Source of the DNA: a virus
Lineage: Duplodnaviria; Heunggongvirae; Uroviricota; Caudoviricetes
Virus record (IMG/VR): IMGVR_UViG_2713896897_000004
Location: 1 to 9,910 of that record
Length of the DNA: 9,910 bases
Strand: one strand, 5' to 3'
The first letter of the stretch is position 1. Every line of letters begins with the position of its first letter. The translations under genes and the position numbers were made by a program. Below are positions 3,978 to 8,542 of this stretch, piece by piece. Below the pieces are notes generated by a model. That model saw only the letters and a list, made by a program, of their open reading frames with translations. It was not told the origin of the DNA and searched no databases.

Positions 3978-4460
3978 TTATTTGATAAGAAGTGAAGGTT
4001 TCCCAACTTTGAGTTGAGCGCCGGGGATATTTATTCCTGCTTTTAGTTGGTGTTTGATTGCCAACTTGTCGGCTTTAATTGTTGTTTCAAACTCAACGTA
4101 TTCAGGAGGAAGGGCGCTTGAGTCGATGATTTCTACAGTTTCTGACGGTTTGCGGATTGTTACCTGGTGAATACCTGCTCGCATCTTTTTCTTGCCAACC
4201 ATTTCAAGCGATGACGCTATATATGATTTGATGCTGTCAATCTTATTTTGAATTACTGCGGCTCGTTCATTCAGTGACTTTGCCTCTTCCTTGAGGCGTT
4301 CAGCATAACCAGATTCATTTTTAATAATGGCGAGAAGTTGCTCTATTTTATCGGTAAATTCTCCTTCCATGCCTTCTATTGTGTCAGCAATCATCTCTGG
4401 TTCTAAATCTGAATCCATCAATTTTGCGTATTCATTGGCTATTTCATATAGTTTGCTCAC
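3978..4460 (-). CDS. Sipho_Gp157-like coiled-coil protein (RecT-associated)
   Basis: Likely start is GTG at 4460 with GGAGG 6 nt upstream; the track's start at 4466 is a TTG. N-terminal LYEIANEYAKL...IADTIEGMEGE...LKEEAKSLNERAA resembles the Gp157 family pattern. Confidence 0.6.
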   Translation of the reverse strand: MSKLYEIANEYAKLMDSDLEPEMIADTIEGMEGEFTDKIEQLLAIIKNESGYAERLKEEAKSLNERAAVIQNKIDSIKSYIASSLEMVGKKKMRAGIHQVTIRKPSETVEIIDSSALPPEYVEFETTIKADKLAIKHQLKAGINIPGAQLKVGKPSLLIK

Positions 4461-5355
4461 TGGCAACCTCCAGTTTCGCTTTGCATTCCATGTAAATGGC
4501 TTGTACGTTCTGCTGCAATTTCATTCCAGATGTCAGGCGATATGCTTCTGCAAAATATCGCTTCAAATCATCCATGTTTTCTGCCTGAGCCATTTCATCA
4601 CAAAGAAGTTGTGCTTTATCCATTATTTCCTGCTGGTGTTTCCGTTCATCTTCGCGGATATCTTCCTCTGATTTGTGCGGCATAACTGGTTCAGTCCACA
4701 CACCTTCTTCTTCGTTTAGTACGTGAATAGCACTATCAAGACGTAATGCCTTAGGCCAATACTTGCTTGCACGCTTTACGACCGTCTTTCGCGCCATCTC
4801 ATTCCAGTGATTTACCCATGGTCCTTTATCGCTGAATGCTGCCTTGCTTGTTTTCCTTACAGCCTCAATTTCAGCCAGACTCATCTCTTCCGTTAGATAA
4901 TCACCTGCTGGCGTCTTAACTGTGCAGTAAACGCCAACGATATCACCACGATCACCGAAGGCGGTGTATTTATGGGTTGGTGCTTTATCAAGCCCGTTTG
5001 ACTCATAGGTATCGTTAGCATGAACAAGTTTTGCCTGACCCCATGAGATAACACCAGACTCCATTGCAATATGGAGCAATCCCATATAGCTGATATCAAG
5101 GCAAACCATGCCATCGCGCGGAACCAGATAAGCCAGTTTGCTTGCAGGGTTTAAAGTGATGCCGATCGCCGCAACGTTGATGATAGCGTTCTGTGCGCTG
5201 GTTGGATTTGCCAGTGCTGTTTTAGCCAGGTAATCGTTTTTCTGGAAATACTGAATTGCAAACTGGCTTTCCTTAGCCCATGTCACCGTCTGTTCAGTCA
5301 ATACTCCGCAGAATAACTGCTCTTGCTGTTTAACGAATTCAACGATATTGCTCAT
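4444..5355 (-). CDS. recT: RecT-family single-strand annealing recombinase (303 aa)
   Basis: Motif GPWVNHWNEMARKTVVKRASKYWP matches the RecT core (GPWVTHWEEMAKKTAIRRLFKYLP in Rac RecT, as recalled). ATG at 5355 with GGAGAA 6 nt upstream; ATGA overlap with the upstream gene. Confidence 0.85.
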   Translation of the reverse strand: MSNIVEFVKQQEQLFCGVLTEQTVTWAKESQFAIQYFQKNDYLAKTALANPTSAQNAIINVAAIGITLNPASKLAYLVPRDGMVCLDISYMGLLHIAMESGVISWGQAKLVHANDTYESNGLDKAPTHKYTAFGDRGDIVGVYCTVKTPAGDYLTEEMSLAEIEAVRKTSKAAFSDKGPWVNHWNEMARKTVVKRASKYWPKALRLDSAIHVLNEEEGVWTEPVMPHKSEEDIREDERKHQQEIMDKAQLLCDEMAQAENMDDLKRYFAEAYRLTSGMKLQQNVQAIYMECKAKLEVASEQTI

Positions 5356-5663
5356 GCAGCTTCTCCATAAATATGTCTGCGTTTGAATATTGCGAAGGCA
5401 TATTCAGCCTTAACTCTTTCGGTTATTGCATCCCAGAACCATTCAGCGGCTTTTTCCTGATAGTTACAGTCATCATCTTCCAGCCAGTCGATAGCGTCCT
5501 TAGTGTGTTCATCTGGTTTATATGAGCGAAGCATTTCGCTTATTGGGTCGCAACGTTTGCAGAGGCGATCAACTTCACTGTTGATTCGCTCGTAATCTTC
5601 ATCAGTAAAACTTGCGATTATTTGCGATATTTCACGCTTATCATTCAGAGTCAGAATCATCAT
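5352..5663 (-). CDS. Hypothetical acidic protein (103 aa) in the gam-equivalent slot
   Basis: ATG at 5663 with AGGAG upstream. About 24 Asp/Glu against 15 Lys/Arg. Sits immediately upstream of recT. Confidence 0.6.
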   Translation of the reverse strand: MMILTLNDKREISQIIASFTDEDYERINSEVDRLCKRCDPISEMLRSYKPDEHTKDAIDWLEDDDCNYQEKAAEWFWDAITERVKAEYAFAIFKRRHIYGEAA

Positions 5664-5744
5664 CTTTCTCCTGTTCTTTGTGCTGATTGAGCATTTTGTT
5701 CATCTGACGAATGAATTCTTCGTCTTACCAGTTATCTGTAAAAC

Positions 5745-5897
5745 TCATTTCCTGCGATACCACGGAAGGTTGATAGCTGATTTCATCGCTTTATTTGCTT
5801 CAAGCCACATTTTGGAATCACCAATAAATCTGGCTATTACTGCTTTGTTTTGTGCTGCACGAAGCATCTGGTGATTGATGGCTATTTCATTGCGCAT
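5745..5897 (-). CDS. Kil-like small protein (50 aa), candidate host cell-division inhibitor
   Basis: Not in the ORF track; found by hand translation: MRNEIAINHQMLRAAQNKAVIARFIGDSKMWLEANKAMKSAINLPWYRRK. ATG at 5897 with GGAGG 4 nt upstream. It overlaps the cIII 3' end by 16 nt in another frame, the arrangement I recall for cIII/kil in lambda. Confidence 0.4.
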   Translation of the reverse strand: MRNEIAINHQMLRAAQNKAVIARFIGDSKMWLEANKAMKSAINLPWYRRK

Positions 5898-6016
5898 AAC
5901 GCCTCCAGTTGTTTCTTTGCTGCTCTGATTAATTGTTTAACTCGGCGTGATAATTCAGATTCGTGCGGGTAGAAAGCGGACATGACGCCGCTACCCGCGA
6001 GCTGAAAGTGCATCAT
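5882..6016 (-). CDS. cIII: cIII-like protein (44 aa), FtsH (HflB) protease inhibitor
   Basis: ATG-ATG at 6016/6013 with AAGGAG 6 nt upstream. PHESELSRRVKQLIRAAKKQLEAL aligns with the lambda CIII core PSESLLERITRKLRDGWKRLIDIL. The track's 79-aa version starts upstream of a terminator hairpin. Confidence 0.6.
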   Translation of the reverse strand: MMHFQLAGSGVMSAFYPHESELSRRVKQLIRAAKKQLEALCAMK

Positions 6017-6082
6017 GGGTAACTCCTTATATTTGATTGCATAACGAAAACGCCTCGAGTGAAGCGTTATTGGTATGCATAT

Positions 6083-6106
6083 AAAAAAGCCCTCACACTG
6101 GAGGGC
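6083..6106 (-). terminator. Rho-independent terminator (tL-type) just upstream of cIII
   Basis: Plus strand aaaaaa-GCCCTC-acactg-GAGGGC: on the minus strand a 6-bp GC stem is followed by TTTTTTAT. Confidence 0.5.
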
Positions 6107-6168
6107 AAAGAAGATTTCCAATAATCAGAACAAGTCGGCTCCTGTTTAGTTACGAGCGACATTGCTCC

Positions 6169-6255: not shown

Positions 6256-6705
6256 TTACTTAACCAATGATGCTGCATATTCGATAAGGTAAAGCTTTGG
6301 GGCCAGCAAAATTTTTAACCATGTCATATTGGTTACTACAGCAATAATAAAGCTTACCCACAGAACAAAAACTGCAGCTAATGGTAAGATTAGAAAACTA
6401 ATCTCACCGTTACTTTCCCAAATCATAGTCGGTTTGTATTTAGTCTTCCCCTTATCCCATGACCATCCTTCATCATCGAACTTACCAATTTCAACTTTTT
6501 GGTACTGTTTCTTCATAAACCAGAAAACCAGCGGGATTGTTAAAATGGCTATTAATGTTTTAATCAGACTGTCAACCATATTCCATAGCAGCAACTGATG
6601 AACAACATCAGGAATCTGTGCCTGGCTAAATGAGACAGCTGTGTCTATTCCATTACTGGCTTTTTGCAATAGTTCTATGAGAATCTTATTTGCCTGTTCT
6701 TCCAT
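6256..6705 (-). CDS. Two-TM inner-membrane protein (149 aa), putative superinfection-exclusion protein
   Basis: ATG at 6705 with GAGGTGA 5 nt upstream, overlapping the N stop. Two hydrophobic helices (LIKTLIAILTIPLVFWFM and ISFLILPLAAVFVLWVSFIIAVV). It sits immediately downstream of N, as sieB does in lambda and P22; the assignment is by position and topology only. Confidence 0.65.
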   Translation of the reverse strand: MEEQANKILIELLQKASNGIDTAVSFSQAQIPDVVHQLLLWNMVDSLIKTLIAILTIPLVFWFMKKQYQKVEIGKFDDEGWSWDKGKTKYKPTMIWESNGEISFLILPLAAVFVLWVSFIIAVVTNMTWLKILLAPKLYLIEYAASLVK

Positions 6706-6713
6706 ATATCACC

Positions 6714-7049
6714 TCAAATAAGTGGTTTGCTGCCTAATTTCATTTTCTGGCGACCAACACAAGTCACCCCCATTTCACTGCGTGGCTTGCGGTAGTAAAT
6801 ACGGTTCTGTTTACGCTCGACTTCTTCTGCCTTCTTGCAGCGAAGGCTTCCGAGTGATATTGCTTTTTCAGAAAGGCTTAAACGCTTTCTTGGGGCCTCC
6901 TGAACAGGTTCCTCACTGTCTGTGCCGAAGATAGAATCAATGATGTTACAGATAGCATCACGCTCAATAGCAAGCTTTCTGCGCCGCTCATGACGGCGAG
7001 TTTTGGCATTTCCTGCAAATGTTGATTTTCCGTACACGATTACCGTCAT
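6714..7049 (-). CDS. N: N-type transcription antitermination protein (111 aa)
   Basis: From ATG 7049 (GAGGA 8 nt upstream), residues 13-30 read GNAKTRRHERRRKLAIER, matching the P22 N arginine-rich motif as I recall it. The C-terminus YYRKPRSEMGVTCVGRQKMKLGSKPLI parallels lambda N's WYSKPGERGITCSGRQKIKGKSIPLI. The track's 139-aa ORF begins at a GTG at 7133 in the leader. Confidence 0.85.
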   Translation of the reverse strand: MTVIVYGKSTFAGNAKTRRHERRRKLAIERDAICNIIDSIFGTDSEEPVQEAPRKRLSLSEKAISLGSLRCKKAEEVERKQNRIYYRKPRSEMGVTCVGRQKMKLGSKPLI

Positions 7050-7140
7050 GATGTTTTCCTCATGTGAAATGGCTTTGGTGGTGATGCGCCAGATGCTGAT
7101 CTTCTGGTTGCTGTCGTTGCAGCTGCAATTCACATCACCG

Positions 7141-7495: not shown

Positions 7496-8542
7496 TCACT
7501 CTGGTTCGCTGGGGAATATATTTATCAATTGCCCTGTTGAAATGTGTCCATTTTCTACAACCTCTAGGTATGAAATTTCAACAGTTGATTCTTTGGCTAC
7601 AGCATTCAAAAACTCAAGAAGCTCATCAGTAGATGTTATGTCGGCTGAGGTTTTTATGGTGAAAGATTCACCATTTGAAACCCTTGTGACGTCAATATTT
7701 ATGTCCTGATTTGTTTCTCCCGAGCGACGAACGCCCGTGACATAAAAGTTATCTCTTCTAGTTTCCTTTTTTCGATCAATTGATTGCCTTTGGTTTAAGG
7801 TATTCAACTGTTCTCTATTTACCACTCTCTGACCAATTGTTACCTTCTCAACTGACGAGTCTTGAGCAAGCTTTTTAAGCAACTTGCTTTTACCATCCTC
7901 GCCGTGAGCCAGAACCTCTCTGCTAATGTTTGTTTGACCGCTAATCAACAACTTGAGCACATTGTCTTGTGCTTCGTTTACCGCTTTGGTGCTTTTTTCC
8001 ACCAATTGCACCTGAGAATCTTGGTCATGTCGCTGTGTTTCGTAGTACTCATTGATCCACTTATAGCCTACCGTGCTGGCAGCTAAGACGATAGCGGCGA
8101 CGGCGCATAGTGCTTGCCTTCCTGTCATTTTGCCTATCGCTTGAGTTAACACTGTCACCACTCCGTTTACAATCGGATCTGAGTCACCATCCGCTTGGCT
8201 TGAGCCTTCGCTTATTCGGTAGACAATATCCAGCAAACCTTTCTCTGCATCTTTTAGCTTCTGCCGATTATGAGTGCTGTGACTGACTACCGTAAATGCT
8301 TTTTGTATTTCATGCGTAAGCTCTGCCATACCAAAAAGCATTGACGCAGTCAATGAAGAATTATATCTATTTGGATCGCCTTTTACATTAATATTGATCT
8401 TTGGCCATCCACTGAAAACTACGCTAGGGAATGTGAAGTCGCTTGAGTCGATATCCTTCCTTCCGAGCATTTCTGTTACAAAAGATACAAAGTCGTCTTC
8501 TGACTTGATAACATATTGTGCAGGTTGATCAATCACTGACAT
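7496..8542 (-). CDS. Uncharacterised 348-aa single-pass membrane protein in the rexAB-equivalent slot; candidate prophage exclusion or abortive-infection protein
   Basis: ATG at 8542 with AAGGA 7 nt upstream, 76 nt after the cI stop with no terminator between. One central hydrophobic helix (ALCAVAAIVLAASTVGYKWI) flanked by soluble domains of about 140 and 185 aa. Hand-counted GC is about 35-40% against about 48-50% in cI and recT. No motif I can assign. Confidence 0.8.
   Translation of the reverse strand: MSVIDQPAQYVIKSEDDFVSFVTEMLGRKDIDSSDFTFPSVVFSGWPKININVKGDPNRYNSSLTASMLFGMAELTHEIQKAFTVVSHSTHNRQKLKDAEKGLLDIVYRISEGSSQADGDSDPIVNGVVTVLTQAIGKMTGRQALCAVAAIVLAASTVGYKWINEYYETQRHDQDSQVQLVEKSTKAVNEAQDNVLKLLISGQTNISREVLAHGEDGKSKLLKKLAQDSSVEKVTIGQRVVNREQLNTLNQRQSIDRKKETRRDNFYVTGVRRSGETNQDINIDVTRVSNGESFTIKTSADITSTDELLEFLNAVAKESTVEISYLEVVENGHISTGQLINIFPSEPE

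What the first reader, a model, noticed from the sequence alone, without database searches (positions are those of the whole stretch)
5745..5897. Kil-like 50-aa ORF overlapping the cIII 3' end, missed by the ORF track
A 51-codon ORF with GGAGG 4 nt upstream of its ATG overlaps the end of cIII by 16 nt in another frame and ends 81 nt before the next gene. This mirrors the lambda cIII/kil arrangement. The sequence contains ARFIGDSKMW, which resembles my uncertain recollection of lambda Kil (IATFIGDEKMF).
Basis: partly seen in the sequence, partly recalled or inferred. Interest (0 to 1): 0.45.

Follow-up and report, generated by a model that had tools for sequence, protein, structure and literature searches.

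The report
Known phage kil gene (HK022 type)
The 50-codon reading frame is a real gene, but an ordinary one: it encodes the Kil peptide of HK022/HK97-type lambdoid phages, a small host cell-division inhibitor annotated since 1989 and identical here to the database entry.

Summary
There is a 50-aa ORF on the minus strand at 5745-5897. GGAGG lies 4 nt before its ATG. It overlaps cIII (5882-6016) by 16 nt and ends 81 nt before the next ATG.

The ORF scores 72.6 bits on Pfam Lambda_Kil (cut-off 27.6) and matches PHROG 2055 "Kil" end to end. BLASTP against lambda Kil gives 17/30 identities (E 3e-9). The protein is 100% identical to the annotated Kil of HK022 (UniProt VKIL_BPHK0), HK97, Sf6 and CUS-3. 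It is also on at least 1000 public contigs under the NCBI name "host cell division inhibitory peptide Kil".

The frame is under strong purifying selection (dN/dS about 0.01-0.17). It is the only stop-free frame, and all 66 sampled alleles are intact. AlphaFold predicts helix 9-25, a G26-D27 turn and helix 28-41, which matches the helix-turn-helix core shown to be essential in lambda Kil.

P22 Kil is not a relative; it falls in Pfam DUF5444.

The most likely function is ZipA-dependent disruption of FtsZ-ring assembly. This is inferred by homology, and I found no direct test of the HK022-type peptide.

Verdict: already known, low interest. One side note: the 81-nt "gap" holds a conserved 35-codon ORF that a rare nonsense codon breaks in this window.

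The parts
5745..5897 (-). kil coding sequence (50 aa plus TGA), HK022/HK97-type Kil peptide
   Evidence: Pfam PF06301 at 72.6 bits against a cut-off of 27.6. PHROG 2055 matched 1-50/50, E 1.2e-35. 100% identical to the annotated Kil of HK022, HK97, Sf6 and CUS-3 and to UniProt VKIL_BPHK0. dN/dS 0.01-0.17, and the only stop-free frame.
5902..5906 (-). Shine-Dalgarno GGAGG of kil, 4 nt before the ATG, lying inside the cIII coding sequence
   Evidence: Sequence read. The same CTGGAGGCG(T/C)T-ATG arrangement occurs in the 65-76% identical homologues L006, L007 and L012. X16093 annotates a putative ribosome binding site at the equivalent HK022 position.
5882..6016 (-). cIII (44 aa). Its last 16 nt overlap the start of kil in another frame.
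   Evidence: Pfam PF08134 cIII at 104.7 bits, E 2e-30. PHROG 550. The 16-nt overlap recurs in L005, L006, L007, L012 and L014; it is 22 nt in ENT47670, 28 nt in Flyfo Tbat2_3 and 32 nt in lambda.
6049..6106 (-). two terminator-like hairpins (6106-6089 followed by TTTTTT; 6068-6049) just upstream of cIII and kil. A third lies at 6251-6234.
   Evidence: Consensus scan: 7 sites found against 2.6 expected. HK97, HK106 and HK75 records annotate a terminator at the equivalent place. That transcripts reaching kil need antitermination is inferred.
6714..7133 (-). N-like antiterminator ORF. The true start is probably internal, near 7052.
   Evidence: Pfam PF25694 N_peptide at 92 bits, matching from residue 29. 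PHROG 271.
5641..5748 (-). remnant of a 35-codon ORF coupled to kil through ATGA. It fills the 81-nt 'gap' and is broken here by TAA at 5727-5725.
   Evidence: Window translation MSFTDNW*DEEFIRQMNKMLNQHKEQEKDDDSDSE*, against the intact Kapi1_014. The TAA allele is on 2 IMG/VR contigs and the TCA allele on at least 120.
5352..5663 (-). next gene downstream, a 103-aa protein of unknown function, followed by RecT (4444-5355)
   Evidence: PHROG 3486, E 1.7e-59. RecT matches Pfam PF03837 and PHROG 148.

Best explanation
Window 5745-5897 (minus strand) is the kil gene of a mosaic lambdoid prophage or phage, in its HK022/HK97 allele. It lies in the leftward early operon, in this order on the minus strand: cI, a 348-aa cargo gene, N, a 149-aa ORF, terminators, cIII, kil, a small ORF, a 103-aa ORF, RecT and a Gp157/Gam-like gene.

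The following steps are inferred. kil is probably transcribed only after the repressor is lost, and only when N lets RNA polymerase read through the terminators upstream of cIII. Its ribosome binding site and start codon lie inside the last 16 nt of cIII, so its translation is probably coupled to cIII translation.

The product is a 50-residue peptide predicted to fold as a helical hairpin: helix 9-25, a Gly26-Asp27 turn, then helix 28-41. By homology with lambda Kil, it most likely binds FtsZ and disrupts FtsZ protofilaments and their bundling, in a way that depends on ZipA in vivo. The Z ring then fails to form and the host filaments during prophage induction or early infection.

Shown here: the gene is real, conserved, under purifying selection, a member of the Lambda_Kil family, and has the predicted fold. 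Inferred: the transcriptional control, the translational coupling and the molecular target.
For: Family membership: Pfam Lambda_Kil at 72.6 bits against a cut-off of 27.6. PHROG 2055 'Kil protein for bacterial septation inhibition' matched 1-50/50, E 1.2e-35. BLASTP against lambda Kil gives 17/30 identical, E 3e-9.

Identity to known proteins: 100% identical to annotated Kil in HK022 (X16093, 'kil gene product AA 1-50'), HK97, HK106, CUS-3 and Sf6 gp31. The exact sequence is UniProt VKIL_BPHK0 and NCBI 'host cell division inhibitory peptide Kil', on at least 1000 contigs.

Selection: window against homologues at 63-76% protein identity gives pN/pS 0.18-0.28, with no stop codon only in this frame. 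L006 against L007 differ at 1, 1 and 19 sites at codon positions 1, 2 and 3. All 66 alleles from IMG/VR are intact, and 16 of 23 polymorphic sites outside the cIII overlap fall at the third codon position.

Synteny: the cIII-kil overlap is conserved across HK022-type, Flyfo and lambda loci.

Fold: the AlphaFold2 model has mean pLDDT 83 (core above 92), with helix 9-25, turn and helix 28-41. The G26-D27 turn aligns with the G19-D20 turn of lambda Kil. Lambda's helix 4-18, turn and helix 21-38 are each required for activity (PMC11762379).

Mechanism in lambda: filamentation, loss of Z rings, a requirement for ZipA, and inhibition of FtsZ bundling in vitro (PMC3961180).
Against: I found no experiment on the HK022-type peptide itself in the searched literature. 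Identity to lambda Kil is confined to the roughly 30-residue core. The window peptide has an 8-residue N-terminal extension. Its C-terminal tail (NLPWYRRK) is unlike lambda's (ILILKLRSSKSIH). It lacks the RSK/RSSK motif that Naha et al. report in nearly all lambda-type homologues and suspect to matter for function, although it does end in a basic RRK. The terminator and promoter calls are consensus matches only. The 4-nt spacing between the Shine-Dalgarno sequence and the ATG is on the short side.
Confidence: 0.9

Rival explanations
1. It is a genuine Kil-family peptide, but the HK022-type subfamily acts differently from lambda Kil. For example, it may not depend on ZipA, may have another divisome partner, or may have weakened toxicity, because its termini differ.
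For: The window peptide falls in PHROG 2055, while lambda Kil falls in PHROG 3924. Each matches the other's profile only weakly, at about E 2e-6. The C-terminal RSK/RSSK motif is absent. No functional test of this subfamily was found. Unrelated phage 'Kil' proteins such as Rac KilR do have additional targets (PMC12482147).
Against: The helix-turn-helix core, which is the part shown to be essential in lambda Kil, is conserved in sequence and in predicted structure. In lambda Kil, removing the N-terminal 5 or the C-terminal 11 residues on their own leaves activity. The peptide still ends in a basic cluster (RRK). Its position next to cIII is the same as in lambda.
Confidence: 0.08
2. The ORF is a chance open frame in the 3' untranslated region of cIII and is not translated.
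For: Short ORFs are common: one search lists 94 of at least 30 aa in 9.9 kb. The spacing between the Shine-Dalgarno sequence and the ATG is only 4 nt.
Against: The curated family HMM is passed by 45 bits. dN/dS is far below 1, with a strong third-position bias. The ORF, its start codon and its Shine-Dalgarno sequence persist in homologues whose synonymous sites are saturated. All 66 sampled alleles are intact.
Confidence: 0.01
3. The real gene here is the antisense 64-aa ORF on the plus strand (5680-5874), and the kil frame merely mirrors it.
For: One antisense frame also shows a low pN/pS of 0.31-0.35.
Against: That is the expected echo of the frame whose third codon positions coincide with those of kil. 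The antisense frames carry stops in the window segment and in the homologues. The plus-strand ORF was not scanned against protein family libraries. Every public annotation places kil on the minus strand.
Confidence: 0.01

Closest known systems
Kil of phages HK022 and HK97 (UniProt VKIL_BPHK0; GenBank CAA34219 in X16093; HK97 gp43)
   Same: Identical 50-aa sequence, the same 16-nt overlap with a 44-aa cIII, the same ribosome binding site, and about 98-99% nucleotide identity over 5700-6140.
   Different: Nothing in the gene itself differs. Only the flanks are mosaic: here a 103-aa ORF and RecT follow, where HK97 has gp42 and Erf.
Bacteriophage lambda Kil (47 aa; Pfam PF06301; PHROG 3924)
   Same: Same Pfam family. 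57% identity over the 30-residue core, including FIGDxKM. The same predicted helix, Gly-Asp turn and helix. The same position overlapping the 3' end of cIII in the leftward early operon, upstream of the recombination genes.
   Different: The window peptide has 8 extra N-terminal residues. Its C-terminal tail is unrelated and lacks the RSSK motif. The cIII overlap is 16 nt rather than 32 nt. Lambda kil also overlaps gam, whereas here a small ORF follows. Function has been shown experimentally only for lambda Kil and HK629 Kil'.
P22 Kil (62 aa; Pfam PF17519 DUF5444; PHROG 2394)
   Same: Same gene name, the same position overlapping the 3' end of c3 (by 20 nt), and the same annotated role.
   Different: No detectable sequence relationship: BLASTP E 0.22 and a different Pfam family. 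It is an analogue by position and not a homologue.
Rac prophage KilR, and other phage FtsZ inhibitors such as DicB and T7 gp0.4
   Same: Small phage- or prophage-encoded proteins that block Z-ring function and cause filamentation (PMC12482147; the others from general knowledge).
   Different: The authors state that KilR is unrelated to lambda Kil. It also acts independently of ZipA and perturbs MreB as well. I did not compare its sequence here.

Membership tests
Lambda_Kil (Pfam PF06301) | Sequence match to the family profile above the curated gathering score | tested here: met
   72.6 bits against a cut-off of 27.6, E 1.7e-20, profile positions 1-31 of 31. Lambda Kil itself scores 72.3 bits.
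Lambda_Kil (Pfam PF06301) | Short peptide (about 40-60 aa) whose core is helix, Gly-Asp turn, helix | tested here: met
   50 aa. The AlphaFold2 model has helix 9-25, G26-D27 and helix 28-41, with core pLDDT above 92. The turn aligns with G19-D20 of lambda Kil (PMC11762379). This is a prediction, not a solved structure; no relative exists in the PDB.
Lambda_Kil (Pfam PF06301) | Located in the leftward early operon immediately after cIII and overlapping its 3' end | tested here: met
   16-nt overlap with cIII. The same arrangement is seen in lambda (32 nt) and in 8 other loci. A few family members lack cIII upstream (Serratia Eta, Proteus Pm34), so this feature is typical rather than strictly defining.
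Lambda_Kil (Pfam PF06301) | Expression causes filamentation through ZipA-dependent inhibition of FtsZ-ring assembly | not testable with these tools
   Shown for lambda Kil and HK629 Kil' only (PMC3961180, PMC11762379). I found no report for the HK022-type peptide.
HK022-type Kil subfamily (PHROG 2055) | Full-length match to the subfamily profile, or identity to its founding member | tested here: met
   Matched 1-50/50, E 1.2e-35. 100% identical to HK022 Kil.
Lambda-type Kil subfamily (PHROG 3924) | Full-length match including the C-terminal RSK/RSSK motif | tested here: not met
   Only the core matches (residues 10-40, E 1.7e-6). The C-terminus is NLPWYRRK, with no RSK or RSSK.
P22-type Kil (Pfam PF17519 DUF5444; PHROG 2394) | Sequence match to the family profile | tested here: not met
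   The window peptide does not hit PF17519 or PHROG 2394. BLASTP against P22 Kil gives E 0.22.

The most novel reading that the evidence does not exclude
The HK022/HK97-type Kil subfamily has apparently never been tested directly. It has an 8-residue N-terminal extension and a PWYRRK tail in place of the RSSK tail of lambda Kil. It might therefore engage the divisome differently from lambda Kil, for instance without needing ZipA or through a second partner. About 44% of sampled loci that share the downstream module lack kil altogether, so its benefit may also depend on conditions.
Probability: 0.1. Interest if true: 0.3.

Novelty: already known. Interest (0 to 1): 0.07.

Why it matters
It matters little beyond correct annotation. 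The window carries an intact copy of a well-known phage cell-division inhibitor that ORF callers with a length threshold skip. In practice, small genes of the lambdoid early-left operon (cIII, kil and the 35-codon ORF after kil) need homology-aware annotation. The HK022-type Kil, present on at least 1000 public contigs, is a natural second sequence for structure-function work on how Kil peptides inhibit FtsZ and ZipA.

Tried and rejected
- **P22 Kil as a relative:** rejected, because it belongs to a different Pfam family and BLASTP gives E 0.22.
- **NCBIfam scan:** no model hit for the window Kil, lambda Kil, P22 Kil or cIII. The NCBI name seen must therefore come from another rule.
- **Rfam scan of the whole window:** no family reached its gathering score, so no known RNA element lies at or near kil.
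- **PDB sequence search with the family profile:** only chance hits with E above 0.2. No fold search was run, because a 50-residue helical hairpin would match non-specifically.
- **PADLOC:** no hit for Kil or its neighbours.
- **Literature on the HK022/HK97 peptide:** searches by name and by exact sequence found no experimental work on it.
- **GTDB representative genomes:** the scan gave only 4 loci. The IMG/VR pattern scans were far more informative.
- **Source of the window:** no phage record or complete E. coli genome covers 80% or more of the window, so it is a new mosaic of known modules.
- **Antisense ORF as the real gene:** rejected.

Full report
**1. The observation**

Read on the minus strand, the window has an ATG at 5897-5895 and a TGA at 5747-5745. 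Between them lie 50 sense codons: MRNEIAINHQMLRAAQNKAVIARFIGDSKMWLEANKAMKSAINLPWYRRK. GGAGG occupies 5906-5902 and is separated from the ATG by CGTT. The upstream ORF (ATG 6016, TAG 5884-5882, 44 aa) overlaps the new ORF by 16 nt in another frame. The next ATG downstream is at 5663, which is 81 nt after the stop.

A 50-codon ORF alone is not evidence of a gene, since one search lists 94 ORFs of at least 30 aa in this window. The case has to rest on homology and conservation.

**2. What it is**

The peptide scores 72.6 bits on Pfam Lambda_Kil (PF06301; cut-off 27.6; E 1.7e-20), covering the whole 31-position profile. It matches PHROG 2055, 'Kil protein for bacterial septation inhibition', over 1-50 of 50 positions at E 1.2e-35.

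The upstream ORF is cIII (PF08134, 104.7 bits). The surrounding minus-strand genes are an N-like antiterminator, RecT and a Gp157/Gam-like protein. A cI-type repressor (S24 peptidase plus HTH) and a divergent cro-like gene lie at the right end. This is the early-left operon of a lambdoid phage.

A tblastn search of 50,697 phage records finds the peptide at 100% identity in HK022, HK97, HK106, HK633, HK75, HK446, CUS-3, Sf6 (gene 31) and others. Nearly all of these records annotate it as Kil. They include the 1989 HK022 entry X16093, which reads 'kil gene product (AA 1-50)' next to 'cIII gene product (AA 1-44)' and marks a putative ribosome binding site at the same place. The exact sequence is UniProt VKIL_BPHK0 and carries the NCBI name 'host cell division inhibitory peptide Kil'. 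It was seen on at least 1000 contigs.

The DNA of 5700-6140 is 98-99% identical to HK106, HK97 and HK022. The window as a whole is a mosaic that no phage record or complete E. coli genome covers to 80%.

**3. Direct comparison with the named Kil proteins**

Lambda Kil, translated from NC_001416, is MDQTLMAIQTKFTIATFIGDEKMFREAVDAYKKWILILKLRSSKSIH. BLASTP gives 17/30 identities at E 3e-9, aligning window residues 10-39 with lambda residues 3-32.

P22 Kil, in contrast, belongs to a different Pfam family (PF17519, DUF5444) and a different PHROG (2394). It shows no significant similarity to the window peptide (E 0.22). It is a positional analogue, not a homologue. Rac KilR is stated by its investigators to be unrelated to lambda Kil (PMC12482147).

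Within the Lambda_Kil family, the window peptide belongs to the HK022-type subfamily (PHROG 2055) rather than the lambda-type one (PHROG 3924). Each matches the other's profile only through the core, at about E 2e-6.

**4. Is the frame really coding?**

I collected homologous DNA from several sources:
- Cedecea and Enterobacter genomes (L006, L007)
- Cronobacter phage ENT47670 (L011)
- coliphages Dewey and mEp234 (L012, L014)
- 118 IMG/VR contigs

Outside the cIII overlap, window against divergent homologues gives pN/pS of 0.18-0.28 while synonymous sites are near saturation. L006 and L007 differ at 1, 1 and 19 sites at codon positions 1, 2 and 3, giving dN/dS of about 0.01. The kil frame is the only one of six without stop codons. 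One antisense frame also shows a low ratio, but that is the usual echo of shared third positions, and that frame carries stops.

Among 66 IMG/VR loci with this kil, every allele is an intact ORF and 49 are identical in protein to the window. Of 23 polymorphic sites outside the overlap, 16 fall at the third codon position.

The start codon, a Shine-Dalgarno sequence and the overlap with cIII are retained in the divergent loci. The overlap is 16 nt in most, 22 nt in ENT47670, 28 nt in Flyfo Tbat2_3 and 32 nt in lambda. It is clearly not met.

**5. Structure and mechanism**

An AlphaFold2 model built from 13 family sequences has mean pLDDT 83, rising above 92 for residues 11-40. It shows helix 9-25, a turn at G26-D27 and helix 28-41.

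In lambda Kil, AlphaFold 3 predicts helix 4-18, a G19-D20 turn and helix 21-38. Deleting either helix or the turn abolishes activity, while removing the first 5 or the last 11 residues singly does not (PMC11762379). The two Gly-Asp turns coincide in the BLASTP alignment.

Lambda Kil causes filamentation by rapidly dispersing Z rings. [quoted passage not shown]

I therefore infer the same mechanism here. It is an inference. I found no experiment on the HK022-type peptide, and its termini differ from lambda's: it has an 8-residue N-terminal extension and a PWYRRK tail without the RSK/RSSK motif noted in lambda-type homologues.

**6. Expression context (inferred)**

Three terminator-like hairpins lie on the minus strand between the 149-aa ORF and cIII, at 6251-6234, 6106-6089 followed by T6, and 6068-6049. 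The scan found 7 sites against 2.6 expected. HK97-type records annotate a terminator at the equivalent place.

With an N-like gene upstream, kil should be expressed only from derepressed, N-antiterminated leftward transcripts, as in lambda. Because the kil ribosome binding site and ATG lie inside the end of cIII, translational coupling is likely. No Rfam family matches anywhere in the window.

**7. Things seen in passing**

The 81-nt 'gap' after kil is not empty in relatives. An ATG that overlaps the kil stop (ATGA, window 5748-5745) opens a 35-codon ORF. It is annotated in phage Kapi1 as Kapi1_014 (MSFTDNWSDEEFIRQMNKMLNQHKEQEKDDDSDSE), and its first 16 residues are shared with the N-terminus of HK97 gp42.

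In the window, codon 8 of this ORF is TAA (5727-5725) instead of TCA. Exact-pattern scans of IMG/VR find the TAA allele on 2 contigs with different flanks, and the TCA allele on at least 120.

Of the 118 IMG/VR loci sharing this downstream module, 52 have no kil. In those, a 56-aa cIII variant (PHROG 550) abuts the small ORF directly. kil is therefore a facultative mosaic module.

The 348-aa ORF between cI and N, in the rex position, has no Pfam or PADLOC match.

**8. Verdict**

The gene is already known, sequence-identical to a Swiss-Prot entry and routinely annotated. It was 'missed' only because it is shorter than a typical ORF-length threshold. Interest is low.

Noticed in passing
window 5641-5748 (- strand); nonsense codon at 5727-5725: The 81-nt 'intergenic' gap after kil corresponds to a 35-codon ORF that starts at an ATGA overlap with the kil stop. 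It is Kapi1_014 in phage Kapi1, and its first 16 residues match the N-terminus of HK97 gp42. In this window a TAA replaces TCA at codon 8. The TAA allele is rare: 2 IMG/VR contigs against at least 120 with TCA.
   Followed up: partly
IMG/VR loci L019-L138 (for example L101:12414-12584, - strand): 52 of 118 loci that share the module downstream of kil have no kil at all. A 56-aa cIII variant (MQQFAIAGAASVRPF...KQQGRP, PHROG 550) directly abuts the small ORF, so kil is a facultative mosaic cassette.
   Followed up: partly
window 7496-8542 (- strand): A 348-aa ORF sits between the cI repressor and the N-like gene, the position of rexAB in lambda. It has no Pfam or PADLOC hit and matches only PHROG 6191 (unknown function). 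It may be a lysogen-expressed cargo or exclusion gene.
   Followed up: partly
window 6256-6705 (- strand): A 149-aa ORF lies between N and the terminators. By eye it has hydrophobic stretches suggesting a membrane protein. It matches PHROG 3054 (unknown function) and has no Pfam or PADLOC hit. It occupies the region where lambdoid phages carry sieB or ral-type accessory genes.
   Followed up: no
window 6714-7133 (- strand): The mechanical N-like ORF starts at a GTG, but the Pfam N_peptide match begins at residue 29 (MTVIVYGK...). The true start is therefore probably the internal ATG near 7052.
   Followed up: no
L008 (phage P22) 4002-4190 compared with window 5745-5897: The genes called 'kil' in P22 and in lambda or HK022 occupy the same slot overlapping the end of cIII/c3, yet belong to unrelated protein families (DUF5444 against Lambda_Kil). 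This is a case of positional analogy under a shared name.
   Followed up: yes
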